Origin: a virus
DNA: 64,000 nt
Strand: one strand, 5' to 3'
IMG/VR virus record: IMGVR_UViG_3300020192_000008
Coordinates: 43,273 to 107,272 of that record
The notes beneath the pieces are model-generated. The model was not told the DNA's origin. It worked only from the letters and a program-made list of their open reading frames with translations, and did not search any database. Below, piece after piece: positions 822 through 53,595 of this stretch (the first letter of the stretch is position 1; each line of letters begins with the position of its first letter). Position numbers and translations under genes: made by a program.

Positions 822-2471
822 TTACAGAAGGCCCCCGTAGATGTCAGCGCCCAACTCGTCCCAGAAAGCGTCCCGCAGATAGTGGACCGTGAGGGGAGTG
901 AAGAGCTGATCAACTGGTGCCGACGCCAGCTTACTGAACTCACTACCCCTTGGGGCAGATGCGTTCAGAAGTCCTTGTGCGCCGCTCACCAGATCCATGA
1001 GAGTTGTTCGGTACCCGTTGTAGGCAGCTCCTATCTTACGCAGCACTTCTGAGGGATGGGAAGAAGAGGCCCTCTTCTCACCCCCGTCGCTCTTCTTCAT
1101 CACAAGTACACGATGCTCAATCGCAGGCGCGAGAGCAGAGCGTGATTCCATGAGAGGGAGAAGAAGTCTTGCAAGTGAAGGAAGGAAGGAAGCGTGGCCG
1201 AGAGACATACTCTCAGTATCTTTCGATCTGGGGAAGACGATGTTCCGACGATCAAAGTCGTCAGCCATGTCTCTCCGTCCGATCTGAATCAAGACGATAC
1301 GCTGAAACTCCCTGGGACGAAGAACGATGCCCAAACCACCAGAAGTAGACAGGGAGCTGGGCAGGTCATGTTTCCCGAGTGCATCAAGCACATCATCAGG
1401 CAAATCTTCTTCTTCTCTCGACAGAGTGGCCACCGCCTTGCCAGCGAACTGGCTCGGCACAATGTCCTTGATGATCTCACTCTTCTTGAGCTTCGCGTCC
1501 TTGTATTGGAACGCTTCCTTGAAGATTGACTCGTTGAGAGAAGCCGTCTTTTCCCCAACGGTCATCTCGTCGTAGCCGAGCTTCTCCGCCTCATAGGCAG
1601 AAGAGCCGAACGAATAGACGCGCCCCTCAGACGCGATCTTCATCATCGTCTTGGCTGTCTTGTCAGCCCCGATGAAGACGAAAGAGATGTCGAAGAACTT
1701 CGGGAAGTCGTTGTAGACGTACACCTTCCGGCCATCGGCCAGAATCTTGTTCATCTGATTGCGAGCGTGCTCGCAATAGTCCTTCCGAGTGATCGACACG
1801 CCCCGGATAGGGGTCTTCTTATGGATGGCGAGGATGGCCTGGCCCGGAGACGCGTGCTTCTTCGGGTCGAAGGTGGCAGCCGCCTCGTGGTACCGCTTCC
1901 AATCGAGGCAGATGGAGCACGTATCGAAGGGCACCTTGCAGCCCATCGAGACATCCGGAAACATGCCCTGGCTGAGCTTGTCCCAGACCTGCGTGCCCCC
2001 GTACTCCTGGCACTTGAGCTTATCGACCCGAGTAACGAGCTCGACGCGCTTGAGCCTCGGGTGCCAGACAGCCAGCTCCACCTCACCGAAGGCGCGGCCT
2101 GCGTCCTTGTTGCGATGGTGGGCGTAGGGGTGGGCTGAATAGAAGGTCGGGTAGCCGTACGCCCAATCCTTCGCCTTGATCTTGTCGAGCAAAGGGTTGC
2201 CCGTCCAATCATCAGGGCGATGGATCAGGGCAGCTTCTGGGAAGTGATCGCCGTTGACATTGGAGCCGAAGAACTCTCCGGCCCCCATGGCATTGACGAG
2301 GTTGTACGCTGCATCATTCCGGGGCCTGAGCGACTCGATATACTTGACGACGTCAGGAAGAAGTGTGGCTGATGCGGTCTTCTCGAAGTACGCATCAGAC
2401 GCTTTGTTGAAGAGCGGGATGACCGTTGGGCCAGTCTCGCTCTCACCCCAGTATGTGCAGAGCTTGTACAT
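822..2471 (-). CDS. Prohead (capsid maturation) protease, HK97/assemblin-like fold with Zn-binding insert
   Basis: HHRNKD (candidate catalytic His), DVSMGC (candidate catalytic Ser), CSIC...YCEH, FFDISFVFIGAD; lies among head genes. Confidence 0.7.
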   Translation of the reverse strand: MYKLCTYWGESETGPTVIPLFNKASDAYFEKTASATLLPDVVKYIESLRPRNDAAYNLVNAMGAGEFFGSNVNGDHFPEAALIHRPDDWTGNPLLDKIKAKDWAYGYPTFYSAHPYAHHRNKDAGRAFGEVELAVWHPRLKRVELVTRVDKLKCQEYGGTQVWDKLSQGMFPDVSMGCKVPFDTCSICLDWKRYHEAAATFDPKKHASPGQAILAIHKKTPIRGVSITRKDYCEHARNQMNKILADGRKVYVYNDFPKFFDISFVFIGADKTAKTMMKIASEGRVYSFGSSAYEAEKLGYDEMTVGEKTASLNESIFKEAFQYKDAKLKKSEIIKDIVPSQFAGKAVATLSREEEDLPDDVLDALGKHDLPSSLSTSGGLGIVLRPREFQRIVLIQIGRRDMADDFDRRNIVFPRSKDTESMSLGHASFLPSLARLLLPLMESRSALAPAIEHRVLVMKKSDGGEKRASSSHPSEVLRKIGAAYNGYRTTLMDLVSGAQGLLNASAPRGSEFSKLASAPVDQLFTPLTVHYLRDAFWDELGADIYGGLL

Positions 2472-3010
2472 AAGGGGCCCTGACCGCCCTTGTTGTTGCG
2501 GCGCTGGTAGGGCTTGGCGACGACCTTGGGCTTGAGCGACTCGGCGAACGAGTTACCTGCGTGCTCACCACCCCTACGCCACGAATCAGCCATGGGGGAC
2601 TTGAACTTGTCGGAGGCCGACAGGCTCTCGGTGAGGATGCCACCGGCTGACATGGGGTTGTCGGCCATGCGGCGCAGATAGGTCCCGGCGACGATCGGGT
2701 CCTTGGCGAAGTTCGGATTCATGTTCCGAAGCGACGAGTACATCTGGTTGAACATCTTCGGGTCGCGCTCGTGATGCTCATGCAGGTCCGGGTTCAGTTC
2801 CAAGATCTGCTTGAAGTCGTGCGACTTGGTGGCCGCATCGTAGATCTTGCCAGCGGCCATGCCGGCGCCGGCGAAGGCAACTCCGGCAGCAGCCATCCCA
2901 AGACCCTGCGTCATCGCATGGCCGAAGCCCTTGGCAGCTTCACCACCGAAGGCGACCTTCTCCTGGGGCTCGCCGTACTGGGCGTAGAAGTCATCGAGGG
3001 GGTTAGACAT
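2471..3010 (-). CDS. Virion/head-associated protein (179 aa if TTA is stop)
   Basis: EKVAF motif and Gly/Ala hydrophobic segment. In-frame TTA 2473-2471 overlaps the protease ATG (TTATG). The standard code would extend it to 2225, about 245 nt into the protease gene. Confidence 0.65.
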
Positions 3011-4242: not shown

Positions 4243-4938
4243 ATGGATAAAAAACTCATGGGAAGCTGGCCCCGGCTGGTCTCCGTGCTGGAAGCAGCCG
4301 AGATGCTTTCGGTTTCTGTCGATCAAGTCCATCGCTGGAACCGGGATGGTCTACTAGAGGCTGAGTACCCAGAGGGAAGAAGAGGGGGGAAGTACTTCCA
4401 GACGGAAGACATCCAGACCCTCATAGAAGCTCGGGCCAGCAAGACGCTCTCTGACCATGATGTGAAGATTCTAGCCCTTCAGTCTCTGGTCTCCTCCAAG
4501 AGGGCAGAACGAAAACTCGATGAGCTGCTTGGGATGCTCGGTGTTTCGGACGTGAAGCTCGGTACCTCGAGGGAGGAGGTCTTGGCTTTCTTCGTCGAGG
4601 TAGAGGACGAGATCAAGGAGGGTGAGCCGCTCCTACCCGAGGAGGCGATCGGCTGGGCCAAGCGGATGCTGGGCATCACCGAGGAGTACCTGGAGCTAGT
4701 GAAGGAGCACACGTTCATGCTCGAGCCCTGGGTCCCGTACATGCAGCTCTCCAAGAAGCTGCACGACAAGTTCCCAGCAGGGCAGGCAGGGGCCTACCTC
4801 TCTCACGCCATCCGTAATCTTCGGCACACGGCGTACTTCTACGTGCGTCGGGCGGATGGGGTGAGAGAGGCGACGAAGCGCTTTCCCGAGGGTGGCGTGA
4901 CGAGCCAGCTCCTCGGGATCATGTTTCCGAAGAGCTAA
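4243..4938 (+). CDS. Helix-turn-helix DNA-binding protein (MerR/excisionase-like N-terminus)
   Basis: LVSVLEAAEMLSVSVDQVHRWNRDGLL...GGKYFQTEDI. Confidence 0.7.
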   Translation: MDKKLMGSWPRLVSVLEAAEMLSVSVDQVHRWNRDGLLEAEYPEGRRGGKYFQTEDIQTLIEARASKTLSDHDVKILALQSLVSSKRAERKLDELLGMLGVSDVKLGTSREEVLAFFVEVEDEIKEGEPLLPEEAIGWAKRMLGITEEYLELVKEHTFMLEPWVPYMQLSKKLHDKFPAGQAGAYLSHAIRNLRHTAYFYVRRADGVREATKRFPEGGVTSQLLGIMFPKS

Positions 4939-7836
4939 CCCTTGGTTCGTTGGCCCCGAGTAACCGCCGAGGTTGGGGCCACCGCTCCGAGCGTTCTCTT
5001 TCTTCGGGGTGATGATGTCCGGCCTGGGGTGGATGATCATCGAGCCAACGAAGCAGTAGATGATAGAGTGCAACGCATCATCAGGCCGATCGGGCCTGTG
5101 CTGGTACTGGATCATGTGAAGAGACTGGTTGTACTCTGTGAAGATGTTCAGGATGTCTTGCCCGAACGGCTCACGGAACTCTTCCCACCTGGGGAACATG
5201 ATCTGCTTGCGCTTGATGGCCGTGAAGACATCGCTCACGACTTCCGTCTTGTGCACCTTCCAACGCTGCAGCTTACCGTCCCACTCGACCTTCTTCTTGT
5301 TACGGGCCATGTACTGGAAGCGGTGCACGCGCTGGGTGCCGAAGCGACGGATCAAGTAGGCGTTGTTGTTGAAGCCACCGCCGTAGTCGCACCCGATGAT
5401 GCGGACGTTGTACGCATGCAGGATGCGCTTGATCTTCTCGAGCTGGATCTCAGGGTCCGTGTCTTCACCCGTGAAGCGGTGGATGAAGAAGATCTTGAAC
5501 TTCATCCCGTCGTAGTAGCCGAGACTCATGACCGTGTAGCTGTTCTCGCCCGTGTTACCTTGGTACGCGATGCTTCCGTTACGCTCTGTGACGATGTACC
5601 CCGAAGGCACGGCGCAGCAGTACACCTTGCCCGCATAGGGGACGTGCTTCACCGCCGTGGAGGGGGTGTTGAACTGGTAGTCTCGGCCCTCCGACCACAA
5701 GGCTCTCCAGCGCGTCTTCCGGTTCCCCTCCGCAGGCTTGTGCAGCTTCACGGAGCACCGAAGACCGAGCTTTATGCAGATCTCCTGGAAGTCCTCGCAC
5801 AGCCCTTTTGACGTCGAATAGAAGGCCCCTCCTGTGCAGCCCTCCCGAGGGTCCGTGTAACCGTCTCCGTCTACCAGGGCCTGAAACAAGATCCGAAGCT
5901 GCCTTTGGCCGAGGCCGAGGAACTCCCGTGGGATACGCTTCTCGTCCCCTTCGACCCCTACGTTCTGGGCGTACCACGCCCAGTACTGCTTGCCGTAAAT
6001 GGTCCAGTTGACGTCCCCAGTCTTTGGGTTCGGGAACGCCTTGAACGAGACCCCCACCCGGTCGAGAGACGCCTGCATCTTGAGGTAGGTCTCGTGGTTG
6101 ACCGTCTCCCTCTGCGACATCTTGAGGCAGGACGGGCGGCCCCCATCAAAGCAGACCCCGCCCTCTGTCACGAGATAGCCGAGTAGCTCCAACCAGTCGT
6201 CCATGGGGACGGTCTTGTCCTCAGAGCCCTTGTACCCAGGGCTCGTCGGCAGCCCCGGCAGCGTGAAGGCCTGCTTCTCCTCTCCTTGCCAGTCGACGTA
6301 GCCCACGAACTTGACGTTGCCGCCCCGTTCTACGAGTTCGCCCGCCGACTCGGTGAGCCACCGCTCTCCCTGGGAAGTCCCGACACGCATGCGGTGCGTA
6401 TGGGTGATCATCAGATCGAGCCCCCCCTTGGTCTCGAAGTGTAGAAGTGGCTGGTCCCAGTCGCGTACCGTACGAACCTTCGGAGCCACGAAGGTCATCG
6501 CACGCGTTTCTGGATCCCACTGGGCTACCTTGTCTTCGTCGGTGAGATCACAGAAGTACTTGAAGCCAGACTGCGTAAGAATGCGTGTCTTGTCATCGTG
6601 ACAGCCCCAGTCGATGCCAGCGAAGATGTTGCCGGCGGTAGCCGTCTTGCGGATCTTCTCGAGGGCCGTGGGGTGCATCGTCAGCTTGGGGTCGCATGAC
6701 TCCTTCAGCTGGCCCATGGTGATGGGCCGGAGGCCTGAGTCGTAAGACATCCCCAAGACTTCGTTGTAGAACTTGTCGCGGGGGTACCGCTCGTAGTCGA
6801 GCAGGATTTCCTCCCACGACCGCCAAGGCACCATCAGCTGGGGGATGCGGTAGCTCTCGAAGACCCCGTCACGGACCTGGTTGATCCACTTCGAGTCCTT
6901 GTGCATGGGGTCGATCTTCCCCCCGCACTTCTCGCAGATGAGGCTCTTCTTACCGATGTTCTTCTCGCAGAGGATGTTCCAGTGCCGGCCAGCACCGCCA
7001 CCAACGGAGGACCCGCAGTGGTCGCACGGCACCATCCACTCACCCTGCGTCGACATCGGGCGGCCCTTGGCCACGCCTGACCGGTAGAACTCGATGGGGT
7101 TGTCGAGCCCTTTGGGTGTGCCGGCGTAGATGAAGCGCTTGAACTTCTCCGGAGCGTGGCTTGTGCACTGCTCGATGACGGGGATGTTGTCGGCGAGAAT
7201 GTCTTGGAGCTCGTCGAGGGTGAGCAGCCAGGCTGGGATGCCTCGGGTACGGTCGGCGTTGAGGAACGCATACCTCAAGGTGATCTTCGCCCGGTTGACG
7301 AACTGCTTCTCGAAGATGTTCTGCGACAGCATGGTCGTCGTGAACGTCTTCAAGACCTGGCTCGTCTCGATGGGCTCCTTGATACGGTCGACCGAGAAGA
7401 CCTTCGTCTGCGTGGCTGACGGGCTCACGTACAGCGTCTTGTACGCCGGCACGACGCACGAGTACGAGAGCATGATGTTGCCGATCATGGTCGACTTCTC
7501 GACCTGCCGGCCACAGAACAGGAGCACGCGCCTGGCTGGGGTGTTGTAGGGGCGGCGCATGTGCCGACGCCCCTCAAACGTGAAGTTCTCGTACCCCATA
7601 CCGTCCTGCCGAGGCATCCGGAAGGCGAACTCGGTGAACTGGCTGGGCAGGACAGCGGGGATCTTGACCGCTGCCCTGCGCTTCTCCTCTATCTCCCAGA
7701 AGTCCTCGAAGGGCTCTGGCTCAGGGAGCCAGGGCTTGCCGTTGTGCATCCTTCGGAGTTCTTCGTCTGTGAACTCTTCAGGCTCGAGGTCCTCTTCAGA
7801 AGGGACCGTGACGGGGTCAGGCTGGAAGCTGCTCAC
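4936..7836 (-). CDS. terL: Terminase large subunit with LAGLIDADG intein
   Basis: GRQVEKST (Walker A-like), LTLDE (Walker B), AGTP, GIDWG nuclease motif, PDDALHS. Ends at in-frame TTA 4938-4936; the standard code runs to 4696, 243 nt into the convergent gene. Confidence 0.88.
5554..6603 (-). mobile_element. Intein (350 aa) with LAGLIDADG homing endonuclease in terminase
   Basis: GIDWG|CHDDKTRILT...THTHRM...ERNGSIAYQGN|TGE; LAGLIDADG-like LLGYLVTEGG and FQALVDGDG; penultimate residue Gly, +1 residue Thr. Confidence 0.9.
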
Positions 7837-9171: not shown

Positions 9172-9178
9172 CTAAGGC

Positions 9179-11356
9179 TAACGCCTGCTGGAACGCCAGC
9201 GTCTTGAGACCCTCGATGACATCCTCGAGGTACTTCACGCACTTCTCGAGAGGGCCCTGGGGGATTTTCGAGAGCCCGAGCCTCGACGACATCAGCAGCT
9301 CACAGAGCTTCGCCTGCGTGCTGTTGATCTCCGGCAGGTAGGAGACGAACGTGTGGATGTTCTCGGGGTTCACGAAGCCGATGGAGAGGATCGTGTCGAC
9401 CGAGGTGGGGTCGGGGATGAAGGCCGCCTCCTTGAAGAGGTTGCGCTTGAGGTCGAAGGCGGGGCTCGAAGCGAGCTTCTCCTGGGACTTCCTGCGCGAG
9501 GCCATCTTCACCGACTCGGCAGGCTGGATGTGCCGGCCCACCCGGACGTCGACCGGCATGCCATGGGCAATCGCCTGGGCAAGCTTCGTCTGGGCGTAGC
9601 CGAGGTCTGTACCCAGGCCACCCAACAGGAAGAGCGAGTCGTCGAACGACAGGAAGTGCTTCTCGTCAGACGCCAGCTTGTCGATGGGGAAGCCCTCGAA
9701 CGAGAAGCTGTTGACGCCCCCCGCCCTCACGGTCACCGAAGCAAGCTTCCGCTGGGCGTGCGCCACCTTGTTCCCGCCCTCAGGGGCGCTCACCAGGACA
9801 ACGCTTTCGGCCTTGCCCATGCCCATCCACTTGTAGTCCTTGGGCAGGAGGAACGTACCCTCATCAGCCTGGGTGGGCTTCTGGATGTTGGGCTGCAGAG
9901 AGACTGTGCACTCGCGACCATCGTAGGTCTCGACGTGCAGCTTCTGCTCCCCGTCCGTGACCTTCCCCTTGATGGTCATGGGGATGGTCGCCTCTGTCTC
10001 GTCACCACTCTGACGAACGAACACGCCGGTGCCCGTGGGGGAACCGAACATGAGCTCGCCGTTGGTGCTCTGCAGGCTACCGGCGATCTCCGGCTGCACA
10101 GCCGCCGCCGACCCGTTCGTGAACAGGGCGATGGGCAGAACTGTGCCGTCGAGGTCAGTCAGGTTGGGGAATACGAGCCCCATCATCTCGGTGCCCTCCT
10201 CGTTCTGCACCTTGTACGTGCCGAACTCGGTGATGGGCTTGAGGTCTGCCAGCGGGGCGCCTTCACCCACGGCATCGTCAGTGACGGTGACCGAGCCATG
10301 CTCATCGGCATCCTGGGCGAGCTTCACCCCGAAGTGCTTGATGATGTCGCCTCGGCTGACGGAGTGAGCCTCCTTGACCTGCCAGTACTTGTGGTTCGCC
10401 TCCTTGACCCGGTAGCCCACGTTCTCCTTCGAGACCTGGATGACCGAGGGGCGGATGGCGCTCTCCATCGAGGAAGCCACCTTCTCGCTGGTCACCTGGT
10501 TGGTGTTCCAGATCTTGTTGATGGAGGGGAGGGTGGCGTGGGCGTTCTTCACGTACGCCTGTTGAACCCCAACGTCCTTCATCTCGTGGGCGAAGGAAGT
10601 AAGGTCGGAGCTCAGTGCTGTCGGAAGGATGGCCTCGAGCAGAGAGGCTGACTTCTCCACACCAGTCAGGTCATGACCCGAGGTCTTGAGGTCAGACTCG
10701 TTCGGGTCCTTCTTGAAGCCCTTGAGCTTCTTGGCATCGACACCAAGCACCTTCGACAGGCGCTCTGCGAACTGCGCCTTGTTCTTGTCTTCGGCCGTCT
10801 TGGTCTCAACGTGCAGCTGCTCACGCAGGTAGTACTCGAGATCTGAGCTGGTCTTGCCCATCATCCCGCCGGCGCCACCCATGCCGCTGCCATCCCGGTG
10901 GGGCGGGTAGATCTGACTGGCCATCGACGTGTCACCTGGCGTCTTGCTGGTGACATCGAAGGTCTGTGGGCGGAAGAGGGCTTCCTTCAGACGCCGCTCG
11001 GTGAGGGGAAGAACCTTCGAGTCACCAGTAACGATGAGGTCGAGGGGCTGAAGCTTCTTGTCCTTGACCACCACCGGGATGCGAACCGACTTCACGCCCA
11101 CGGCGTCCTTGGCCTGGTCGCTTGCGCCTTGCTGCAGCTCGGTCTTGTTGGAGATCTCAATGTGGCCGAATGCAAAGCCACGCTCACCATCGATTCGATC
11201 CATCACCGTGTGAGGCTCGAAGTCCGAGATGAAGGGGATCTGCTTGTACGCTTCCTGCAAGATCTCCTGCGACCACTGGTTCGGGTCTTCAGGAAGAACA
11301 GTCTCAGCGGCCGTCTTCTGGATCGGCAGGATGGAGTCGAGGTAGAGGTTCGTCAT
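9179..11356 (-). CDS. Large head-associated protein rich in K-x-A-S motifs (725 aa if TTA is stop)
   Basis: QKTAA, EKSAS, EKVAS, RKLAS, DKLAS, VKMAS, EKLAS. Ends TTA GCC TTA just before the next GTG at 9171; the standard code overlaps that gene by about 500 nt. Confidence 0.7.
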
Positions 11357-32944: not shown

Positions 32945-33350
32945 AGAAGTCCCGCACGAAGTGAAAGAGTTCCTTGAGGCTCAGGACCGCATCATCCGCT
33001 ACCGGGAGGCTCACCCCGATGTCTTCGAGACGTACGAGGAGCTTGCCTCCACGTACAACGACAAGCTCGAGGCAGCTGACAAGGTCGTCCGGGGCGGGGC
33101 GCTGAGCGTGGGGCCCTTCGAGAAGTACCAGGTCCAGAACAGCTACGACGCCGACAAGCTGTTCGAGGAAGTGGGTATGGAGAAGTTCCTGGCCATGGGT
33201 GGCACCATCAAGACGAAGGCTGTCTACGAGGTGGACCCCAACCGCCTCAAGGCCGCCATTGCTCAGGGCACTGTGCCAGCTGACGTGGTGAAGAAGGTGC
33301 ACAAGGAGACACCGAAGTACCACAAGCCACAGAAGCTGGTGGTCAGGTGA
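32928..33350 (+). CDS. Hypothetical protein
   Basis: MKTKTEEVP..., 140 aa, GTGA-coupled to the next gene. Confidence 0.65.
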   Translation: MKTKTEEVPHEVKEFLEAQDRIIRYREAHPDVFETYEELASTYNDKLEAADKVVRGGALSVGPFEKYQVQNSYDADKLFEEVGMEKFLAMGGTIKTKAVYEVDPNRLKAAIAQGTVPADVVKKVHKETPKYHKPQKLVVR

Positions 33351-33670
33351 GGACGGCGAAGTTCAACGCGCTCTCCGTCAAGGAGCTTTCTGCCAACTTC
33401 ATCAGCTCTGACCCAGCGCTTGAGGGCAAAGCAGCCTTCGTCAGCACGCTGACGCAGAAGACGCATGGTCAGACCATTGGCAAGGTCTGGAGCAAGGACA
33501 CCCTCGACTTGCTCACCCAGCTCAAGGCCTCGATGGAAGCAGACCTCGAGACGGTTCACTTCGCTGACGGGCCGACCAGTTCTTCCATCAACCAGCAACC
33601 TCGTCAGATCGACGAGGCTTTTGAGGGTGGGGGCATAGGCGAACACATCGGTGGTGAACGTCAAGTGTTA
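33347..33670 (+). CDS. Hypothetical protein
   Basis: In-frame TTA at 33668-33670, shortly before the standard TGA at 33680-33682. Confidence 0.6.
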
Positions 33671-33775: not shown

Positions 33776-35158
33776 ATGGCTAGCAGCGAGCACCAGCTCA
33801 TTTCCCTGATCATGAAGACAGGGGATTTGAAGACAGTACTCGAGTGGGGGATCACCGAAGACGATCTCCTGATGAACGACACGAACTCGGCGTTCAAGAT
33901 CTTGATGTCGGTGTACACGAGCCCCGATTCAAGGGGCGCTGTACTTGGGCCGTCATCAGCACTTGAGAGGTACCTGCCCGCGTGGCAGTTCGAGGTTGAT
34001 GCGGGCATGACGCTCAACTTCCTTTGCAGCGAGGTGCGCAAGCGCAGGCTGTCGAAGGAGCTGAAACTCAAGGCACAGGCCTGCATCGAGTACGCAGACC
34101 TCAACCCTGAGGAGGCATTCAACCAGTTGAACGAGGCAGTGACCCTCTACCGCAACATCGATGCCGGCAAGTCAACAGACGTTGACCTGGCAACGGGCAT
34201 GAAGAAGGTCATCGCGAAGTACAACAAGGCCAAGAACGGGCAGAGCATCGGCCGGTTCATGTGGCCTTGGAAGCCTCTGCAAGAGGCTACTGGTGGTGTG
34301 GCTGACGATGAGTTCGCCGTCTTCTACGGCAGGCCCAAGAGCATGAAGTCTTGGATCTTGATGTACCTCATCACCTTCGCCTTCGAGATGAACCAGAAGG
34401 TTCTCTTCTACACCAAGGAGATGACCGACGAGCAGTGCTACCAGCGGATGGCCGCCATCATGGTCGGCGCTCTCTACCAGGACCTGCGCCTGGGCAAGCT
34501 GCCTGCCTTCCAGGAAGAGCAGCTGCACGTCATCCAGCAGGTGGCCGAGGAGATGGCCTCGAAGAACAGGATGATCTGCCTCACGGCCAAGGACGTCGCT
34601 GGCAGGGACACCCCCAGCTGGCTGCGAGGCAAGATCGAGAAGTACCACCCCGACGTTGTCTTCGTCGACGGTCTGTACCTGATGAGCCCCGAGGCTCGCC
34701 GTAAGACGATGCAAGACCACGAGCGTGTTCGGGAGATCTCCCGTGACGTTCGACGCATCGTTCTCGAAGAGAAGGTCCCGCTGATGGCCACCATGCAGGC
34801 CAACCGGCAGGCAGCGAAGCACTCTGAAGGCAACCTTGATGAGATCGCCTTCTCTGACTCGCTCTCGCAAGACTGCACCATGGCTTGCCGGGTGATGTCC
34901 GACAAGCACCAGCCCACCATCAGCCTCGTGATGGCCGGCTCTCGTGAGTGGACGCTCGACGGGTTCCGGGTGCACGGCATCCCAGCGAGCAACTTCAGCT
35001 TCCACTCGGTTCTGACCAGCAAGGAGATCGAACAGGTCAGGAAGAACGACGAAGAGGAGGACGAGCCGAAGGACAAGAAGCCCGTACGTCAGCCCCGCAC
35101 GTTGGGGGCAGAGAAGCCTGCTCCCAACTACAAGAAGACGCTCGAGAACATGCCGTTA
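33776..35158 (+). CDS. dnaB: DnaB-like replicative helicase (460 aa if TTA is stop)
   Basis: GRPKSMKS (Walker A), VFVDGLYLM, QANR, SDSLSQD. TTA 35156-35158 overlaps the primase ATG; standard stop is at 35266. Confidence 0.85.
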
Positions 35159-36126
35159 TGGACAGGCACTCGGAGGTACTTGCTATCGCACAGAAGTACC
35201 TTCACAAGGTCAAGAAGAGCGGGCCAGACAACGTCATGGCGTTCTGCCCCTTCCACGACAACGTGAACACCCCGGCGTTCACGATGTCGTTGACCAAGGG
35301 CATCTGGTTCTGTTTCTCATGCCACGCCAAGGGAACACTCAAGATGTTCCTCAAGGCGATGGGCATAGGCGAGGGTCTTGTTCAGACGCACTACGGCTCG
35401 CTCATCGACGCCCTACGCAAGAACGTAGACCCGGCCTTTGATCCCAACAAGCCTGGGGTCATCTGCCAAGAGCCTCTCGACGAAGCCATCCTCGGGTTCT
35501 TTCACGAGTGCCCGATGGATCTAATCAACGAGGGCTTCACCGAGGAAACCCTGCTCCACTTTGGGGTGGGGTTCGACAAGAAGCACAACCGCATCACGTA
35601 CCCCATCCGAGACTTCACGGGGAACCTGGTCGGCATCAGCGGGCGCACTGTTACAGGTGCCTACCCGAAGTACAAGGTCTACGACCTGGAGTACAAGGAC
35701 TTCGGTCTGGGCGTCTACCACACCGACAAGTCTCGGTACCTCTGGAACTCGAGCGAGGTCTACCCTCAAGTCTACTTCTCAAGGGGCGAGAAGGTCGTGC
35801 TCGTTGAGGGCTTCAAGGCCTGCATGTGGGCCTGGCAAGCGGGTATAAAGAATGTGCTAGCCCTTCTAGGCTCATCAATGTCAGCCCAACAGAAGTGGGT
35901 GCTTGAGCGTCTAGGCGCACCGGTGTACCTCTGGCTAGACAACGACGACGCCGGCCGTAATGGCACGAAGAAGATTGGCGATGATCTGTCCAAGTCCTTG
36001 GACGTGTTTGTCATCGGCTACGAAGAAGCGCAACCGAGTGATCTCGCCCTTGAAGATGTCCAGAGTAAAGTCGCCTCCGCGACGGACTATCACCTGTGGG
36101 CAGTAAGAAAGTACCTGAAAGGTTTA
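35158..36126 (+). CDS. dnaG: DNA primase (CHC2 zinc finger + Toprim)
   Basis: CPFHD...CFSC, GISGR, VEGF, LDNDDAG. Ends GGT TTA TGA, with TTATG overlap to the next gene. Confidence 0.9.
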
Positions 36127-37283
36127 TGAACATGGGCTCCTACGGCAAGACTGATATGAAGAACGCCCCGACCACCTTCCGCCAGTCGGTGGCCAGCCAG
36201 CAGAAACAGAAGCCCGAGAAGACTGGTGCTGGCGGGGGGAACGTCCCCTACTTCGTCAACCAGTTCAAACCCTCGACGGAAGAGCCAGACGTGGTGCGCC
36301 TCCTCAAGGGGGAGTACCCGGTCCAGCTGGCTGGGCAGAACGGTGAGCTGGTCGAGCAGACGCTCGCCTACTACATCTACCGCGAGCACTTCGATGGCCG
36401 TACCAACAAGAGCGCCATCTGCTCAGCGGGACCGTTCGCGATGGACCGCAAGAAGCGCCAGCCCTGCGATGGCTGCGACATCTACTGGGAGGAGCGGTCT
36501 GCGGGCAAGAAGCAGAACAACCGCATGTCCAACCGGGAGATGTACGTCTTCTCGATGCTTCATCACGCCAACTACGTGAAGACCGAGCAGCTCGACCGCA
36601 ACACCGGCGCCGTGAAGGTGAACGATGACGGCCAGCCGTACATGAACTGGGTACGGATGATGGCCCACGAGCGTGGGAAGTTCGCTGGCAAGGAGATGAA
36701 GGACGCCAACGCCCTTCACTGGGCCATGGGCTTCAACCACTTCAACGTCATCCGCGAGTACGACAAGCAGATCGGCAAGTCGTGCAGGGCGTGTGGTGTG
36801 AAGGCTGGGCGCAAGGGCGCTCACGAGGTCGGGGTCAAGAGCGAGGCGTGGTGTTGCCAGGGCTGCGGGGAGGCGCTCATCGAGGTCGACTCAACGGAGC
36901 TGGCGCCCAAGCAGATCGACGAGATCACGTCTGACGTGGTCGAGTGCGCTGTGTGCAAGCGTGTCGGCTACCTGCAGGAGATGGTGTCCTGCACCGAGTG
37001 CTCGGATGGAACGCGCTCGGAGATCTTCGACGTGGACCTGGAGGTTCAGCGGGTGAAGCCTGCTGATGGTGGCAACCAGACGGTGCTGGCCATTGTGGGC
37101 TGGGCGAACCCGCACCCCATCGACCCTCGGCATGTGGAGATTGCCAGGCCGCTGGAGCTGCCGAAGATCTACGCGCCTACCCCGCTCGAGCGTCAGCACG
37201 AGCTCTTCGGTAGCTCGGGGAGGCAGCCGGTCACCGCTGGCAGCAAGCCCTACGGCGGGCCTCCGACTCTCGGCGGCAAGTTA
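36126..37283 (+). CDS. Putative single-stranded DNA-binding protein with Zn ribbons
   Basis: Between primase and polymerase; EHF...C...CDGC plus several CxxC motifs. TTA 37281-37283 lies just before a terminator. Confidence 0.55.
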
Positions 37284-37285
37284 GC

Positions 37286-37326
37286 AAAAAGGGGGAGCGG
37301 GTGATGAGCCCGCTCCCCCTTTCTCT
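37286..37326 (+). terminator. Intrinsic terminator
   Basis: AAAGGGGGAGCGGG-TGATGAG-CCCGCTCCCCCTTT CTCT. Confidence 0.8.
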
Positions 37327-37358: not shown

Positions 37359-39752
37359 ATGGCCTGGAAAGTCGATATCCCAGACGCAGAGTTTTACACC
37401 CTCCAAGACCCCCGTCTAGAGGCAATCGTTCGAGAGGTCTGCGATCAGAAGATCGTTGCCATCGACACCGAGACCACGGGTCTCATCATCTGGCGAGACA
37501 TGCCCCTGTTCTGGTCCCTCTCTTGGGGACGCCGGCGCATCTGCATGCCCGCTGACACGCTGCACAGGTTCATGTCGGCCTTCGAGGATTACGACAAGAC
37601 CTGGGTCTTCGCCAACGCGAAGTACGACATGCACATCCTGGCTAACGTCGGCATCACCCTCAAGGGGAAGATCGTCGACACCCAGGTGATGCACTGCTTG
37701 CTCTACGAGGAGCAGCCACACCGACTCGACTACATGGGCAAGCAGCTCCTGGGTTGGGAGTGGAAGGACATGTTCGATGGCTGGGACAAGCGCAAGCAGC
37801 CCAACATCGGCGACTTCATCATGGACCTGTACCGCAACGATCCACGCAAGCTCATCGAGTACGCGTCGAACGATGCCTACGGCACCATGCAGATATACGA
37901 CAAGCTCAAGGTGGAGCTCGAAGAGTCGTGGGTCTACAGCCTCTACCCCGAGCACTACAAGACGCTCTGGGACATCTTCATCAAGACCGAGGCGCCGTTT
38001 ACCAAGGTCCTGTGGAAGTGCGAGAGGGCAGGCATCTACGTAGACAAGGAGTTCCTCCTCACTCTCGAAGGGCCCGTGGCTAGGGAGATCAACGACCTGA
38101 AGAAGGAGCTGAACGCGCTCTACCAGGCGTATCAGCCGGGCGTCCTGTTCAACCCGAACAGCACCCTGCAGAAGCGCGACTGGTTCTTCAACTTCGAGGG
38201 TCTCAAGGCCGTGAAGCTGGGCAAGGCTGGGGCGAAGACGGGGGTACGCAACCCTTCATGCGACGCCGAGTTCCTTGACCACTACAAGGGCGAATCGAAG
38301 ATGGCCAAGCTCCTCCTGAGGTTTGCCGAGCTCGACAAGCTGCACGGTACCTACCTGGTGGGCCTTCGAGAGTCAGACTCGATCGATAGCCAGGGCTTCA
38401 TCCACACCCGGTACAACCAGGACGTGGCTCGTACAGGACGCCTGTCCTGCGTAGCCGGCTGGACGCCCGTTCGGACCACCCGTGGTGCCGTTGCCATGGA
38501 GAATATTCGACCGGGCGATTCTGTCTGGACCCACAAGGGGCGTTGGCAGCAGGTGACGGCGTTCCTTCCGCAGGGAGAAAGGCACGTTTACGACGTTAGG
38601 CTTAGCAACGGGTATGTTTTGACGTGCACAACCGACCACAGGCTGCTGCTCTCCGATGGGTGCACGTGGGCCACGATTGAGGAGGTGACTGATGGCGTTC
38701 TCGAAGACCTGGACCAGCAACCCGAAGAACAACGCGCTCGACAACCTCGCGGTTGTGACGCGGCAGGGCCACAAGACCGTTCACTTCTTGCAGGTGAAGG
38801 ACACGGGCTCGTTGTCGTTGAAGCGATCGACTATCGCGGCGTGCTTGAGGTCTACGACATCAGCGTAGACGGGGACGAGAGCTACGAAGCCTGCGGAGTA
38901 TTCGCGCACAACTGCTCTGACCCGAACCTGCAGAACATGCCGAACCCTGAGCGGGACAAGTTCAAGACCCGCAAAGCGTTCCGCCCCAAGCCCAGCACGA
39001 AGCGCAAGCTGATTGCCGCCGACTATGACCAGCTCGAGATGCGTCTTCTGGCTTGCGCTGCGATGGAGCCACCCATGATCGACATCTTCCTCCAGGGGAA
39101 AGACATCCACATAGGCAACGCTTCACTCGTCTTCGGACTGCCCTATGACGATATCAAGGCAGCGAAGGATAAGGAGAAGAACGAACTCAACGACTACGAT
39201 CACACGTGCCTTCTTGCACGGCAGAACGTCAAGGCCATTGGTTACGGGCTCAACTACGGAATGAAGGAGTTCAAACTCGCTTCGGATCTGGGAATCCGTG
39301 TTGAGGAAGCCAAGGCCCTCATGGACAAGTATATGTCGGCTTATCCGGCTGTCGAGAGGTTCTTCGCAGAAGCTGTCGATAATGCTCGGATCACCGGGTA
39401 CTCGTTCACCGTCATGGGGCGGAGGAGGTTCTTGCCGGAGATCATCTCCAGGAGAAACCAAGAGAGGAGCAAGGCAGAACGACAAGCGGGCAACTTTGAG
39501 ATCCAAGGGTCAGCCGCTGACGTTGTACGCATGGCGATGATCCTTCTGGATGACGCCCAGCTAGACAAGAGGTTCGACTGCATCATGCGCCTTCAGGTGC
39601 ACGACGAGTTGGTCTTCGACTGCCCTGAAGAGACGCTCACTCCTGCGATGGGGGAGATCGTCGAGTGGATGGAGCATGCGCTTCACACCGACCTGCCGGT
39701 GCCCTTGAAGGTCTCGGCCAAGGCTGCCGACAACTGGGCGGACGCACACTGA
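37359..39752 (+). CDS. polA: Family A DNA polymerase with 3'-5' exonuclease and mini-intein
   Basis: DTETTG, NAKYD, YASND, TGRLS..DPNLQN, ADYDQLEMR, KAIGYGLNYG, IQGSAAD, VHDEL. Confidence 0.95.
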   Translation: MAWKVDIPDAEFYTLQDPRLEAIVREVCDQKIVAIDTETTGLIIWRDMPLFWSLSWGRRRICMPADTLHRFMSAFEDYDKTWVFANAKYDMHILANVGITLKGKIVDTQVMHCLLYEEQPHRLDYMGKQLLGWEWKDMFDGWDKRKQPNIGDFIMDLYRNDPRKLIEYASNDAYGTMQIYDKLKVELEESWVYSLYPEHYKTLWDIFIKTEAPFTKVLWKCERAGIYVDKEFLLTLEGPVAREINDLKKELNALYQAYQPGVLFNPNSTLQKRDWFFNFEGLKAVKLGKAGAKTGVRNPSCDAEFLDHYKGESKMAKLLLRFAELDKLHGTYLVGLRESDSIDSQGFIHTRYNQDVARTGRLSCVAGWTPVRTTRGAVAMENIRPGDSVWTHKGRWQQVTAFLPQGERHVYDVRLSNGYVLTCTTDHRLLLSDGCTWATIEEVTDGVLEDLDQQPEEQRARQPRGCDAAGPQDRSLLAGEGHGLVVVEAIDYRGVLEVYDISVDGDESYEACGVFAHNCSDPNLQNMPNPERDKFKTRKAFRPKPSTKRKLIAADYDQLEMRLLACAAMEPPMIDIFLQGKDIHIGNASLVFGLPYDDIKAAKDKEKNELNDYDHTCLLARQNVKAIGYGLNYGMKEFKLASDLGIRVEEAKALMDKYMSAYPAVERFFAEAVDNARITGYSFTVMGRRRFLPEIISRRNQERSKAERQAGNFEIQGSAADVVRMAMILLDDAQLDKRFDCIMRLQVHDELVFDCPEETLTPAMGEIVEWMEHALHTDLPVPLKVSAKAADNWADAH
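38448..38912 (+). mobile_element. Mini-intein (155 aa) in PolA
   Basis: TGRLS|CVAGWTPVRT...CTTDHRLL...VYDISV...FAHN|CSDPNLQN. Confidence 0.92.
38692..38868 (+). pseudogene. Out-of-frame, internally deleted HNH endonuclease remnant nested in the intein
   Basis: +1 frame; GAGGAGGT SD at 38679-38686; MAFSKTWTSNPKNNALDNLAVVTRQGHKTVH... Confidence 0.6.
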
Positions 39753-44008: not shown

Positions 44009-44348
44009 GGAACTGCTCGGGGCCTGCAACCACACCGAGCTGCACCAGATCTGCAGGCGTATGGACATCCATGTCAGACCGACCGCAAGCCGGGAAGACA
44101 TGATCGACTACATCTGCGGGAATGATGAACCCCCTCCGCCATGGCACGGCATCAATGCCTGGCGACATGCCCTCATGGGCTTCGTTCTCGACAACTGGGA
44201 ACTCATACGTTCTCAGATCTCCTGCCCGGCTAAGTCTGGTGACCCGCGTGCCTGCTTCGGTTGTACCGATACGCAGGTGATGTTCTGTGTTGTCGACAAT
44301 CACGACAACGAGTCTCTCATCCAGCTGCACAAGAAGGATCAACCATGA
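43983..44348 (+). CDS. Hypothetical protein with HeH-like N-terminus and Cys cluster
   Basis: NHTELHQICRRMDI...SREDMIDYI; CP...CFGC...C. Confidence 0.6.
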   Translation: MSSSIRSFEELLGACNHTELHQICRRMDIHVRPTASREDMIDYICGNDEPPPPWHGINAWRHALMGFVLDNWELIRSQISCPAKSGDPRACFGCTDTQVMFCVVDNHDNESLIQLHKKDQP

Positions 44349-45052
44349 ACGCTCCCGCAACCACGATGCCCAGCCCCGAGACCGCTCCCCGCACGCCCGA
44401 GGAGCTGACGAAGATGACCGTCTTCCTCCAGCGCAGGCTGGCCGAGCAGCTCAACTCGTCGGGCTTCCCGGTCTGGACGAGCGAGCCGGAGAAGACGGCC
44501 TTCATCACCGAGACCAGCGAGAAGCGCGGGATGATCTTGGCCGAGAAGCTGGCCGCCTTCGACAAGGCCCGTGGCGGTGCTCCCGCCGCTGCAGCTCCGG
44601 TGGCTACGGTGACCCCCATCACCCCGCCGACGGAGGCAACGCCGGCGCCCGCCACGGCCAGCAAGCGTCAGCCCAAGACGCAGGCGGCTGCACCTCCTCC
44701 GGCAGCTGCCCCCGCTGTCAGCGGTGAGCAGGGGGTGCTCTCGTCCGAGGTCGTCAACCTGCTCAAGACGGTCTCGACCGACCTGAAGAACCTGCACGGG
44801 ATGACCGATGCGAGGATCGAAGGGGTGGAGAACCGTCTCGATGGCGGCAAACTCGTCACCAAGGGCGACCTCGTGGAGCTCAAGGACATGCTCACGGCGT
44901 CGATGCGCGTGCAGCAGGCCACGCTCGGGGTGCTCTGCCTGTTCGGGCAGGAGGTGCTCAAGGCCTCCACCCGTGACGTGATGGGTCCGGCGATCGAGGA
45001 GGCGAACAACGCCCTCGACGCTCTGGAGGAACTGGGCAAGGGAAAAGCATTA
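44345..45052 (+). CDS. Hypothetical protein with Ala/Pro linker; -1 frameshift isoform would extend to 45237
   Basis: AAGGA SD; ends AAG GGA AAA GCA TTA; standard-code stop would be at 45208. Confidence 0.65.
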
Positions 45053-50487: not shown

Positions 50488-50841
50488 TAAGAAGGAGTTC
50501 ACATCAGGGAAGCTGGGGTTGATCTTCGTGCCCGCGAATGAGTACTTCAAACCTTCTTCGATGACCCAGATGCTCAGGTCACCCAGCGCCTTGCGGATCT
50601 TGTAGAGACTCGACTTGCTCACCCCGTTGTTAGGTCCGTGATACCCCCGGGCCATCTCGAGGGTGATGGGCTGAATCTTGTACCGGTAGGTGAACTCGTA
50701 ATAGGGACTGCCGCCAAGCTTCTTGATGGCCTCCCAGAGCTTCTCGTACGTCTCCTTGTCTTCGGCGCTGAGCCGGTACTTCTGCGAAGGCTTCACCTTC
50801 TTGGTGCCTTCGTAGAACCTGCGCAGTCTTCGGAGGCTCAT
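50488..50841 (-). CDS. Hypothetical protein
   Basis: In-frame TTA at 50490-50488; standard stop at 50440. Confidence 0.5.
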
Positions 50842-51047
50842 GGCATGGCTTTCCGAGCGTGAGGTTTGATGCGAGCTACTAGCTCAGCCCCCACTGTTGT
50901 ACCGCTTTCTATCGAAGACCTGCGGGCCTCTGCAACGAGCTGTTCTACCTGCTGCAGACACCACTGGTAGGCGGGCTTTTCATACGCCCCGTCCTCGGCG
51001 ATGGTCCGCTGTACGTGCCGTGCGTAAGCACGAAACTCGTGGGCCAT
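50838..51047 (-). CDS. Small hypothetical protein
   Basis: MAHEFRAYARH...; ATGA coupling to the next gene. Confidence 0.5.
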   Translation of the reverse strand: MAHEFRAYARHVQRTIAEDGAYEKPAYQWCLQQVEQLVAEARRSSIESGTTVGAELVARIKPHARKAMP

Positions 51048-51594
51048 TGTGCTTCGCGTAGTAGATGACGTCCTTCCAGTCGCCGGTACGGAAGTAGTCC
51101 GTCTCGGCGTTGTACGGCTGCGCCCAGACGATGCCGAGGCCATCAGGATGGTGGTCCATCCACTCGATGATGTGGCTCTCCTTGTCGTCAACGAGGATGT
51201 CCCCCTTGCAGACGTACTTGGCGTGGGTCTGGATGACCTTGTTCTGGCGGAAGCCGAAGTGCTTGTAGAGCCACTCGCCCCGCTCGTACGCCCAGTGCCG
51301 GCTGCTGTGAGGGGCCGTGACCACGTAGACGTCAGCCACCTCAAGCAGCTTGGGGATGCCCTCGAGTGCGGCCTGGTAGGGCTCGATGCCAAGGACCACA
51401 CCAGGCGTCTCGTGGATGTAGCCCCAGAAGTCCTTCTCGATGAGGTCCCCGTGCTTGCTGAACAGGTCCCACATGTCGAGCTCCTCTTCCTTGAGCTCCT
51501 TGCCCGTCTTCTCGGAGATCCATCCAAGGGCAAGCTTGACGAAGTTCGCCAGCACACCATCACAGTCAACCAGCACGCGCTTACGTGGTCCCAT
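51025..51594 (-). CDS. 5'(3')-deoxyribonucleotidase (HAD family)
   Basis: VDCDGVLANF, VVTAP, ILVDDK, QPYN. In-frame TTA at 51027-51025; standard stop at 50980. Confidence 0.88.
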
Positions 51595-51682
51595 CTTCAA
51601 CTCCTTCTCCCAGCTTCTCTAGCTCGGCTTTCGCATCATCCATCTCTCGCTGAAACCACGGCTTGCTGTTTTCATCCGCCAT
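51581..51682 (-). CDS. Small protein (33 aa)
   Basis: AAGGAG SD; TTATG overlap with thyX; MADENSKPWFQREMDDAKAELEKL... Confidence 0.45.
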   Translation of the reverse strand: MADENSKPWFQREMDDAKAELEKLGEGVEDGTT

Positions 51683-53595
51683 AACGACTCCTTGATGAGT
51701 GCGAAGTTGTGTTCACCGGGGATGGTCTTGCGATGCTGGACCCACCCCTGGACATTGCCCAGGAAGTGCGTGCAACGATCGACGTCTATCCACGCCTTGT
51801 TGAGCTCATCCCACTCGTAGACGGGCTGGTAGAACATCTCGAGCTCCTTCTCCGTCATGGGCCTGCACGGGTGCTCGAGGGGGCTCATGTGCCCAGGCTT
51901 CACGAGCCTGTCGTAGAGCTCGAGGTCCTTGGAGATGTCGCGCTTGCCATCGTGGGCGAGGGCAGAGACGCGGGCGCAGCGGGCTGCGGAGACCTTCACC
52001 AGCTCAAGCCGTACCTCAGTCGTCGTGTCGCTCCAGGAGTAGTAGCTTGCGTCGCCACCGTCGACGTACGGCAGGTGCCACTCACCGTGCTTGAGCTGCT
52101 TGGGCTCGCTCTTGTCGTAGACATCCTTCATCATCCCCGCGACCATCTGCATCTCGGGTTGAGCGTTGGGGTCGCAACGCAGGGCGAAGAAGTTGTCCCA
52201 CTCGGTCGCGGTACAGATCACAGTCTGCCAGCCCCACGGCTCGAGCAGGCGGTTGGCATGCTGCTTGTGTACAGCGAGGTTGAACAGGCCCTGAGCTGCA
52301 CGGACGCACGCATCAAGCGCATCCGTCCAGTGCTTGGACGCTTCGTGGTTGGAGAGCTCGCTCATGACCTCGGTTGCCTGCATCCCCTTCTGGTTCTTGG
52401 TGAAGGCGATGGGTACGAAGGGGTTGGCCTTGACGCGCTCGATGTTCTTCTCGACGGGGATGGCCCTCGAGGAAGCTGAGTTACGGCTGTTGTGCACGAC
52501 GACCCCATTCGCGAGGAAGTTGGGGTACTTCCCCACGATCTCGAGGTCGTAGGTTGGCTCTTGGCCCCGCGAGACGATCTCGTCGATCCGTGCGAGAGAC
52601 CCGTACAGATACGTGCCGCCCTGCCAGCCCTGCTTCTCGTGCATCGCGCAGTGGCAGTCGTCGCACAAGAGCGTGACGTTAGTCTCTTCCAGAGCCAGAG
52701 AAGGATCCTGATGCACCGGAACGACGTGGTGGATCTGGTTGCCTTTCTCGGCGCAACAGCGACGACACATGGCGTCCATCGACCGCATCCTGTCGCGCAT
52801 CTGGCGCTGCCACACCGAACGCCACTTGCCATCGATCTTCTTCAGACGCAGCGGGTCAGTTCTGTCGTCGTCCTTCTTGCCGAACTTCCTGACGACGAGA
52901 AGGTCGCCCTTCTGTAGGTCTTCGATGCGGCGCCACCCCTCTGCCGTGAGTACGCGGTGGTCCCTACTACCGGCGATGCGGAAGTCGCCCGCCCTCACCT
53001 CGAACACCTCCTTGGTGCCTGACGGGTGGGCAGTCACGACGTGCGACGTTTGGATGTCCCCGGTGTCCTCGTTGAGTTGACGGATGGCCATGCCCGCGAG
53101 CTTCGCGCGCATGTCGAAGCGTGTGTGCTCCGGTTTGCTACTACGCCACACGATCAGGTCTCGACCGAAGATGATCCAAGTCCTCCCGTTGGTGCTGAAT
53201 CGTTCGGCCTTGATGTACCCGTCACGGCACAGCTTGTTGATGTTGCTTGGGTTGGCCATCCCAAAGCGAGAGGCAGCTTCCTGCGCGGTGTAGCGCTCAT
53301 CGGGGTTGATCCACGAAGTATCGTAGTTCGTCTTGGGGTTGGCTCCGACGCGGTCGGCGCCGTTCGACCACTTGTCGACGAACTCGGCGATCGTCATGCG
53401 GTACACTCGGCGGTGCTCCCCCTTCCTGCTCCCTGCGGGCGAGTCGAACTCCAGCATCGAATCCCCTGCGAGGCAGAAGACCCGGTGTGTGTTGTACTCA
53501 GCCAGGATGAACCTGGGGAACGTGCACTCGATGGTGGTGATGCGGTGCCCTGAGGGGCTGATGCTGTCGGCGATGATCTTGGCTGCGTAGTTCAT
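51682..53595 (-). CDS. thyX: Flavin-dependent thymidylate synthase with intein
   Basis: After splicing the signature reads THRVF|SRNSASSRAIP; HKQHANRLLEP, NAQPEM, SAARCARVS, HMSPLEH. TTA at 51684-51682. Confidence 0.9.
52489..53475 (-). mobile_element. Intein (329 aa) with HNH endonuclease and an HTH insert
   Basis: F|CLAGDS...GSRDHRVLT...TYDLEI...NFLANGVVVHN|S; CRRC...HHVVP...NVTLLCDDCH. Confidence 0.9.

What the first reader, a model, noticed from the sequence alone, without database searches (positions are those of the whole stretch)
35156..37326. Three consecutive replication genes end in TTA, suggesting the code belongs to the host
Helicase ends CCG TTA/TG into primase, primase ends GGT TTA/TG into the SSB-like gene, and that gene ends AAG TTA immediately before a terminator hairpin; its standard TGA would fall in the hairpin loop. 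TTA ends occur in both replication/metabolism genes and late genes (terminase, head proteins), unlike the late-gene bias reported for TAG-recoding phages. Inference: termination at UUA works throughout infection, so the host may lack tRNA-Leu(UAA) and have a release factor or rescue pathway acting at UUA. I saw no release factor or tRNA gene in this window. A weaker alternative is stalling at a hungry codon (as with Streptomyces bldA) followed by drop-off or slippage.
Basis: inference. Interest (0 to 1): 0.8.

Follow-up and report, generated by a model that had tools for sequence, protein, structure and literature searches.

The report
Leucine codon TTA ends phage genes
In this uncultured 60% GC phage the leucine codon TTA never occurs inside genes and instead sits where about one gene in six should stop, including the replication genes flagged here. 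It therefore acts as a fourth stop codon, most likely read by an unidentified host, a code change published so far only for mitochondria and plastids.

Summary
Its coding signal leaves the frame at TTA 35156, a relative has TGATG where this phage has TTATG, and 119 homologues have its TTA-terminated length. The primase is simply TTA followed in frame by TGA. The third gene, which has no SSB support, is ambiguous because TTA lies 7 codons before TGA.

Genome-wide the pattern is strong. There are 0 internal TTA in 31,822 codons (at least 13.5 expected, 117 out of frame), and 18 of 112 genes end in TTA across all modules. Portal-like and TerL homologues stop exactly at this phage's TTA.

The host inference is partly supported:
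- There is no tRNA, tmRNA or release-factor domain in the 107 kb, though the contig is only 58% complete.
- Three 98-100% complete relatives also lack release factors.
- A second lineage of the family (L039/L073) gained TTA stops independently, while interleaved relatives read TTA as Leu.

I could not find the host. 401 sampled Myxococcota and 120 Labilithrix-like RF2 proteins showed no altered SPF motif.

This scan had already noted TTA stops in this genome and in unrelated phages. Those notes are unchecked, and I found no published case outside organelles.

The parts
33347..33670 (+). 107-aa gene of unknown function. In-frame TTA at 33668-33670, TGA four codons later (33680-33682).
   Evidence: Relatives end ..VPQG and this one reads ..V-TTA-PRC-TGA, so whether TTA or TGA ends it is ambiguous.
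33776..35158 (+). DnaB-like replicative helicase, 460 aa, ending at TTA 35156-35158. That TTA shares its A with the primase ATG (TTATG).
   Evidence: - Pfam DnaB_C.
- Coding potential leaves the frame at the TTA.
- Relative L001/L002 has ..ANM TGA TG at the same junction.
- 119 homologues have median length 468 aa, against 460 to the TTA and 496 with read-through.
35158..36129 (+). DnaG-type primase (CHC2 zinc finger plus Toprim). It ends GGT TTA TGA, so TTA 36124-36126 is followed directly by TGA.
   Evidence: An ordinary stop is present, so this gene is uninformative about TTA.
36132..37283 (+). It has no Pfam or PHROG match. TTA at 37281-37283, next TGA at 37302-37304.
   Evidence: The homologue in L002 ends 3 residues after the position of the TTA, so it is ambiguous.
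37288..37322 (+). Strong hairpin (15-bp stem, A-run before and T-run after), a likely bidirectional transcription terminator. The standard TGA lies at the top of the stem and in the loop.
   Evidence: -33.6 kcal/mol, z -5.8. The simple terminator scan did not list it.
9179..11356 (-). Portal-like 725-aa protein ending at TTA 9181-9179, with a second TTA at 9175-9173. The next gene starts at GTG 9171. The standard stop is 167 codons further on.
   Evidence: - All 119 database homologues end 2-9 residues after the GLKxLAF motif, and this one reads QQA then TTA.
- L006 has TAG and L007 has TGA at that codon.
4936..7749 (-). Large terminase (with intein) ending at TTA 4938-4936. The same three base pairs form the TAA stop of the convergent gene 4534-4938.
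   Evidence: About 50 relatives have TAG, TGA or TAA exactly at this position.
2471..3010 (-). 179-aa virion-module gene ending at TTA, which overlaps the ATG of the next gene (TTATG).
   Evidence: The L006 homologue ends about 16 residues earlier, not 82 later.
51682..53595 (-). ThyX-like thymidylate synthase with an intein/HNH insert, ending at TTA 51684-51682 (TTATG, preceded by AAGGAG).
51025..51594 (-). 189-aa deoxyribonucleotidase-like protein ending at TTA 51027-51025.
   Evidence: The L002 homologue ends within a few residues of the TTA.
44345..45052 (+). 235-aa gene that ends at TTA 45050-45052 in my gene model. The standard stop is 51 codons later.
   Evidence: This rests on the gene model only. 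No homologue covers its end.
50488..50796 (-). 102-aa gene that ends at TTA 50490-50488 in my gene model.
   Evidence: This rests on the gene model only.

Best explanation
UUA (TTA) is read as a stop codon in this phage. Its code is the bacterial code plus TTA as a stop, the same table as NCBI 23. About 16% of genes (18 of 112) end in TTA.

The flagged replication cluster is part of this pattern. The helicase certainly ends at TTA 35156, coupled to the primase start through TTATG. The primase has TTA-TGA in tandem. The next gene probably ends at TTA 37281, just before a terminator hairpin.

Shown:
- TTA marks the ends of coding regions.
- TTA is never needed inside a gene.

Inferred:
- That host has lost the tRNA-Leu(UAA) that reads UUA but keeps tRNA-Leu(CAA), since TTG is used 180 times as a sense codon.
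It demands A in the third position and accepts U in the second, while TCA stays a sense codon (163 uses). Organellar RF2 proteins with a Ser204 substitution are proposed to work this way.
For: - Internal use. There are 0 in-frame internal TTA in 31,822 codons, where at least 13.5 are expected from CTA/CTG x TTG. 57 and 60 TTA lie in the two other frames. The next rarest sense codon occurs 46 times.
- Coding signal. At 10 or more sites the coding potential of the gene's frame turns negative at the TTA, and another frame or strand takes over.
- Homologues stop there:
  - Portal-like protein: 119 of 119 homologues.
  - TerL: about 50 relatives.
  - Helicase junction: TGATG in the relative against TTATG here.
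  - GroES-like gene: 103 aa to the TTA.
- No backup stops. The distance from TTA to the next standard stop matches that after true stops (median 29.5 against 22.5 codons, p 0.8).
- Junction geometry. TTATG occurs at 6 of 18 TTA ends, like TGATG at 11 of 65 TGA ends.
- All modules are affected.
- No decoding parts on the contig. It holds no tRNA, tmRNA or RF domain, and complete relatives hold no RF gene.
- A second origin. L039 and L073, from two different metagenomes, share a TTA at a conserved stop. They sit in a different well-supported clade from this phage, beside relatives with TTA inside conserved blocks.
- Precedent. A mechanism is published for organelles in PMC12574857.
Against: - No protein or RNA data exist.
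- The contig is 58% complete, so a phage-borne release factor or tRNA-inactivating enzyme could lie in the missing part.
- The host is unknown.
- RF2 in 401 sampled Myxococcota and in the 120 proteins nearest to the RF2 of the one host-hint MAG all keep SPF. This holds as far as I could read them.
- That MAG has a normal RF1 and RF2.
- In the 107-aa gene (33347-33682) the three codons after the TTA loosely resemble the relatives' tail.
- Two of the three flagged genes are equally well explained by their nearby TGA.
Confidence: 0.72

Rival explanations
1. TTA is a stop, but the phage brings the machinery itself. A release-factor variant, or an enzyme that removes Leu-tRNA(UAA), would be encoded in the missing ~42% of the genome or carried in the virion, and the host would use the standard code.
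For: - The contig is 58% complete.
- Known recoded phages carry their own tRNAs and release factors (my own knowledge).
- Earlier scan notes report short RF1-type genes in other large phages (unchecked).
- A small GNAT acetyltransferase is present at genome 8233-8637. Some GNAT toxins acetylate aminoacyl-tRNA (my own knowledge).
Against: - No RF-1 or PCRF domain is found in the 107 kb.
- None is found in three 98-100% complete relatives of the family.
- TTA stops occur in small, probably early genes and in replication genes, which must be translated before a phage factor could build up.
- The trait arose at least twice in the family.
Confidence: 0.17
2. UUA is an unassigned or hungry codon rather than a true stop. 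The host lacks or starves tRNA-Leu(UAA), ribosomes stall, and the peptide is freed by a rescue pathway (ArfB type or tmRNA) or by drop-off.
For: - The sequence signature would be the same: no internal TTA and TTA at gene ends.
- TTA is nearly unused in many relatives, which is the state expected before codon capture.
Against: - tmRNA rescue would tag 16% of the proteins for degradation, including TerL, the portal-like protein and the helicase.
- TTATG coupling at 6 of 18 ends implies orderly termination and re-initiation.
- There is no enrichment of backup stops.
Confidence: 0.07
3. The code is standard. TTA is a rare Leu codon and the genes really run on to the next TGA, TAG or TAA, giving long overlaps.
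For: For the primase, the 107-aa gene and the third gene, the standard stop is only 1-7 codons away.
Against: - This would give junk-like tails of 36-167 residues on the helicase, TerL and the portal-like protein. None of more than 100 homologues has such tails.
- Coding potential is negative in the tails.
- It does not explain why TTA is absent from 31,822 internal codons.
Confidence: 0.02
4. The pattern is an artefact: an assembly or base-calling error, or edited sequence, turned real stop codons into TTA.
For: - I could not inspect reads.
- The closest relatives found do not show the trait.
Against: - The identical read-through helicase protein is on record from 2 contigs.
- Three convergent gene pairs use one triplet as TAA on one strand and TTA on the other. 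A single miscall cannot produce that.
- TAG to TTA needs two base changes.
- L039 and L073, from different metagenomes, keep a TTA at the same stop despite 23% protein divergence and an indel beside it.
Confidence: 0.02

Closest known systems
NCBI translation table 23 (Thraustochytrium / labyrinthulean mitochondria): bacterial code plus UUA = stop, linked to a Ser204 substitution in mtRF2a (PMC12574857)
   Same: The codon table is the same: TTA occurs only at gene ends, while TTG and TCA remain sense codons. The proposed logic also fits, namely an RF2-type factor that accepts U in the second position.
   Different: That is a small AT-rich organelle genome with its own dedicated release factor. 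This is a 60% GC phage that must use a bacterial cell's machinery. No altered release factor has been found here.
peDinoflagellate plastids (UUA and UCA = stop through a modified pRF2) and Marsupiomonadales / Pseudoscourfieldia mitochondria (UUA and UUG = stop through a modified mtRF1a), PMC12574857
   Same: Both are sense-to-stop reassignments of a Leu codon, recognised from gene ends and from the absence of internal use.
   Different: Here only UUA is affected. TCA (163 uses) and TTG (180 uses) are ordinary sense codons.
Stop-codon recoding in phages (TAG to Gln or TGA to Trp in crAss-like and other gut phages; e.g. PMC10879173 and PMC10607447 listed; details from my own knowledge)
   Same: In both, a phage's gene calls fail under table 11. 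The question of whether the phage or the host sets the code is also the same.
   Different: The direction is opposite (sense to stop, not stop to sense). No suppressor tRNA is involved, and there is no late-gene bias.
Rare or unassigned TTA in high-GC bacteria: Streptomyces bldA regulation and unassigned codons of Micrococcus luteus (my own knowledge)
   Same: TTA is almost lost from GC-rich genomes and depends on one dispensable tRNA. That is the likely starting point for codon capture.
   Different: In those bacteria TTA is still Leu and lies inside genes. Here it is never internal and it marks gene ends.

Membership tests
Genetic code with UUA = stop (table 23 type) | No in-frame TTA inside gene bodies although the triplet is available | tested here: met
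   0 of 31,822 codons, against 57 and 60 in the other two frames. At least 13.5 are expected.
Genetic code with UUA = stop (table 23 type) | TTA stands where homologues have TAA, TAG or TGA | tested here: met
   - Portal-like protein: 119 of 119 homologues.
- TerL: about 50 relatives.
- Helicase junction: TGATG against TTATG.
Genetic code with UUA = stop (table 23 type) | Coding signal ends at the TTA and the sequence beyond behaves as non-coding or as another gene | tested here: met
Genetic code with UUA = stop (table 23 type) | No tRNA able to read UUA in the translating system | not testable with these tools
   The contig holds no tRNA at all. The relevant tRNA set is the unknown host's.
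Genetic code with UUA = stop (table 23 type) | Release factor with an altered codon-recognition region (RF2 Ser204 type) | tested here: inconclusive
   - The phage contig and three complete relatives hold no RF gene.
- A sample of 401 Myxococcota was searched. Every RF2 match carrying a G- or C-initial codon at the Ser position proved false (Fic proteins or junk frames). Codons starting with A or T were read in only the 150 of 330 matches that were listed, and all of those were Ser.
- All 120 RF2 proteins closest to the one host-hint MAG keep SPF.
- The host is unknown.
Genetic code with UUA = stop (table 23 type) | Proteins actually end at UUA (peptide or ribosome evidence) | not testable with these tools
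No proteome is available.
Phage stop-codon recoding (code 15 / code 4 type) | A standard stop codon is read as an amino acid, with a phage suppressor tRNA and a late-gene bias | tested here: not met
   TAG, TGA and TAA are never internal. There is no tRNA. TTA ends occur in all modules.
bldA-type TTA regulation | TTA inside the coding sequences of a subset of genes, read by a regulated tRNA-Leu(UAA) | tested here: not met
   No internal TTA occurs in any gene.

The most novel reading that the evidence does not exclude
A free-living bacterial lineage, the host of this phage and perhaps a high-GC myxobacterium, itself reads UUA as stop. Unrelated phages, including two separate branches of this 165-200 kb phage family, would then have adapted to that code independently. 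This would be the first sense-to-stop change of the genetic code in a cellular, non-organellar system.
Probability: 0.5. Interest if true: 0.95.

Novelty: new variant of a known kind. Interest (0 to 1): 0.85.

Why it matters
- Four full-text searches found sense-to-stop reassignment only in mitochondria and plastids. A phage using TTA as a stop implies a bacterial translation system that terminates at a leucine codon.
- Standard gene callers mis-annotate such genomes. Here the public protein records for the helicase and the portal-like protein carry junk tails of 36 and about 160 residues.
- Methods that infer codes from amino-acid alignments cannot see a sense-to-stop change, so more cases may be hidden.
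- The independent gains within one phage family offer a way to find the host and the responsible release factor.

Tried and rejected
- **Reads and contigs.** Raw reads and other assemblies could not be inspected.
- **GenBank phages.** There was no DNA or protein match.
- **ESM Atlas.** There was no usable hit for the portal-like protein.
- **Frameshift into a hidden stop.** Only TTAG sites would give TAG after a +1 shift. TTATG and TTAC sites give none, so I rejected this (contexts).
- **Base-modification miscall.** I rejected this because TAA stops coexist and convergent pairs use both strands of one triplet.
- **Host hunt:**
  - One relative (L008) lies in a Labilithrix-like Myxococcota MAG. 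That MAG has a normal RF1 (PVT) and RF2 (SPF).
  - Pattern searches of the RF2 SPF region in 401 sampled Myxococcota gave only Ser among the 150 listed matches. The five non-Ser hits were Fic proteins or junk frames.
  - The 120 nearest RF2 proteins all read HRLVRISPFD.
  - Codons for Thr, Asn, Cys and similar residues at the Ser position were not fully screened.
  - An earlier scan note of a small myxobacterial group with an altered release factor could not be reproduced, because it gave no names.
- **Pfam scan of the 56 genes left of the window.** It found only GNAT, GroES-like, papain-like protease, dNMP kinase and coiled-coil hits. There was no translation factor or anticodon nuclease.
- **SSB label.** No Pfam or PHROG match supports it.
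Full report
**Setting.**
The window is bases 43273-107272 of a single 107,272-bp IMG/VR virus contig. It has 59.9% GC, is linear, and CheckV rates it 58% complete.

It belongs to a large uncultured family of phages with genomes of about 165-200 kb. More than 400 portal-like homologues exist and 74 relatives are in IMG/VR. There is no match among GenBank phages.

The flagged stretch is a replication cluster:
- a 107-aa gene
- a DnaB-like helicase
- a DnaG-type primase
- a 383-aa cysteine-rich protein
- an intein-containing PolA

**The three genes.**

Helicase:
- TTA 35156-35158 is in frame, and its A begins the primase ATG.
- The standard stop lies 36 codons further on, and the tail looks like out-of-frame junk.
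- Codon-usage log-odds in the helicase frame fall from +0.49 to -0.89 at the TTA, while the primase frame rises to +0.42.
- The relative L001/L002 (51% identity) ends ..ANM TGA TG at the same junction, against ..ENMP TTA TG here.
- 119 homologues are 450-498 aa long, median 468. This one is 460 aa to the TTA and 496 aa with read-through. Family tails end like this one.

Primase:
- It reads GGT TTA TGA, so a normal stop follows immediately.

Third gene:
- TTA lies 7 codons before a TGA that sits at the top of a -33.6 kcal/mol hairpin.
- The relative's protein ends between the two candidate stops.
- I found no support for the SSB label.

A fourth gene just upstream (33347-33670) also has a TTA, 4 codons before TGA. 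Its tail is the only place where read-through gives something faintly like the relatives..VPQG against ..V-L-PRC.

**Genome-wide test.**
- A gene model that treats TTA as a stop gives 112 genes, ending in TGA 65, TTA 18, TAG 15 and TAA 14. Its total score and coverage are higher than under table 11.
- There is no in-frame TTA in 31,822 internal codons, while 57 and 60 lie in the other two frames. The most conservative expectation is 13.5. The rarest real sense codon, ATA, occurs 46 times.
- That zero is partly built into the model. But the plain table-11 ORF lists show the same thing: every in-frame TTA is at a gene's 3' boundary or upstream of a likely start.
- At 10 or more sites the coding signal leaves the frame at the TTA.
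- The distance from TTA to the next standard stop equals that after true stops (p 0.8). So the sequence behind a TTA is not protected by backup stops.
- TTATG junctions (6 of 18) mirror TGATG junctions (11 of 65).

**Homology.**
- Portal-like protein: all 119 listed homologues end 2-9 residues after GLKxLAF. This phage has QQA then TTA, and would otherwise carry about 170 extra residues.
- TerL: about 50 relatives have a standard stop exactly at this phage's TTA.
- The GroES-like gene (103 aa), a deoxyribonucleotidase-like gene and a 179-aa virion gene agree.

**Is it real?**
- The read-through helicase protein is on record from two contigs.
- Three convergent gene pairs use one triplet as TAA and TTA.
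- A second pair of genomes from different metagenomes, L039 and L073, carry TTA at the conserved stop of the gene after the RNA polymerase. In L073 the two genes are in one frame, separated only by TTA CAG. TerL of L039 also ends in TTA where relatives stop.

**Whose code?**

For a host origin:
- TTA ends occur in every module.
- The contig has no tRNA, tmRNA, Rfam RNA or release-factor domain.
- Three 98-100% complete relatives have no release-factor gene either. They carry only tRNAs for Tyr, Arg, Phe and Cys plus two tRNAs that ARAGORN could not assign.
- On a portal tree this phage sits in a clade (SH-aLRT 99) with L061, L062 and L008, all of which use standard stops. The virus that L062 comes from has a TTA inside a conserved block.
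- L039 and L073 sit in another clade (SH-aLRT 99), next to L081, which has a TTA inside the RNA polymerase.
- At least two gains are therefore needed, as expected if phages adapt to a host code.
- Of the 74 relatives, 48 have TTA inside aligned blocks.

Against it, or still untested:
- The contig is incomplete.
- The only host hint is weak. L008 is binned in a Labilithrix-like MAG that has a normal RF1 and RF2.
- I found no RF2 with a changed SPF serine in 401 sampled Myxococcota or among the 120 nearest RF2 proteins.

**Mechanism (inferred).**
TTG (180 uses) and TCA (163 uses) remain sense codons. That is RF2 logic, as proposed for organellar RF2 proteins with a Ser204 change (PMC12574857). 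It also requires loss of tRNA-Leu(UAA).

**Earlier notes of this scan.**
Other readers listed the same TTA ends in this genome, and follow-ups on other, unrelated phages reached the same reading. One note names myxobacteria with an altered release factor as likely hosts. I treated these as leads. I re-derived the first two points here and could not reproduce the third.

**Verdict.**
- The host inference is reasonable, and is strengthened by the independent origins and by the RF-free complete relatives. It remains unproven.

Noticed in passing
L039:9356-9358 and L073:9306-9308: A second lineage of the same phage family uses TTA at a conserved stop. The contigs are IMGVR_UViG_3300031772_000014 and IMGVR_UViG_3300033075_000937. 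In L073 the two genes are in the same frame, separated only by TTA CAG, so table 11 would fuse them.
   Followed up: partly
window 37359-39752, 4936-7749, 51682-53595: Three essential genes carry inteins: PolA, the large terminase, and a ThyX-like gene that also has an HNH endonuclease.
   Followed up: no
window 13220-19522 (-): A 2100-aa single-chain protein sits in the virion gene block. It is conserved at 58-67% identity in the relatives checked.
   Followed up: no
window 9173-9181 (-): Two TTA codons lie one codon apart (TTA GCC TTA) at the end of the portal-like gene, like tandem stops. The second overlaps a TAG in the +1 frame, right before the GTG start of the next gene.
   Followed up: no
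L009:8233-8637 (+) (genome coordinates, left of the window): A small GNAT acetyltransferase (135 aa). It is the only protein in the 107 kb that could conceivably act on aminoacyl-tRNA. An in-frame TTA lies just upstream of its start.
   Followed up: no
L094:1411-1496 and L096:1607-1683: In complete relatives ARAGORN calls two tRNA-like genes with four-base anticodons (actc, gaga) next to ordinary tRNAs. They could be frameshift-type tRNAs or miscalls.
   Followed up: no
window 21052-23613 (+): A MoxR-like AAA ATPase is followed by a DUF2201 metallopeptidase/VWA protein. This gene pair is unusual in a phage replication region.
   Followed up: no
window 4534-4938 (+) with 4936-7749 (-); genome 7990-7992 and 21914-21916: Three convergent gene pairs end on the very same triplet, TAA on one strand and TTA on the other. 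That leaves no spacer between the genes.
   Followed up: partly
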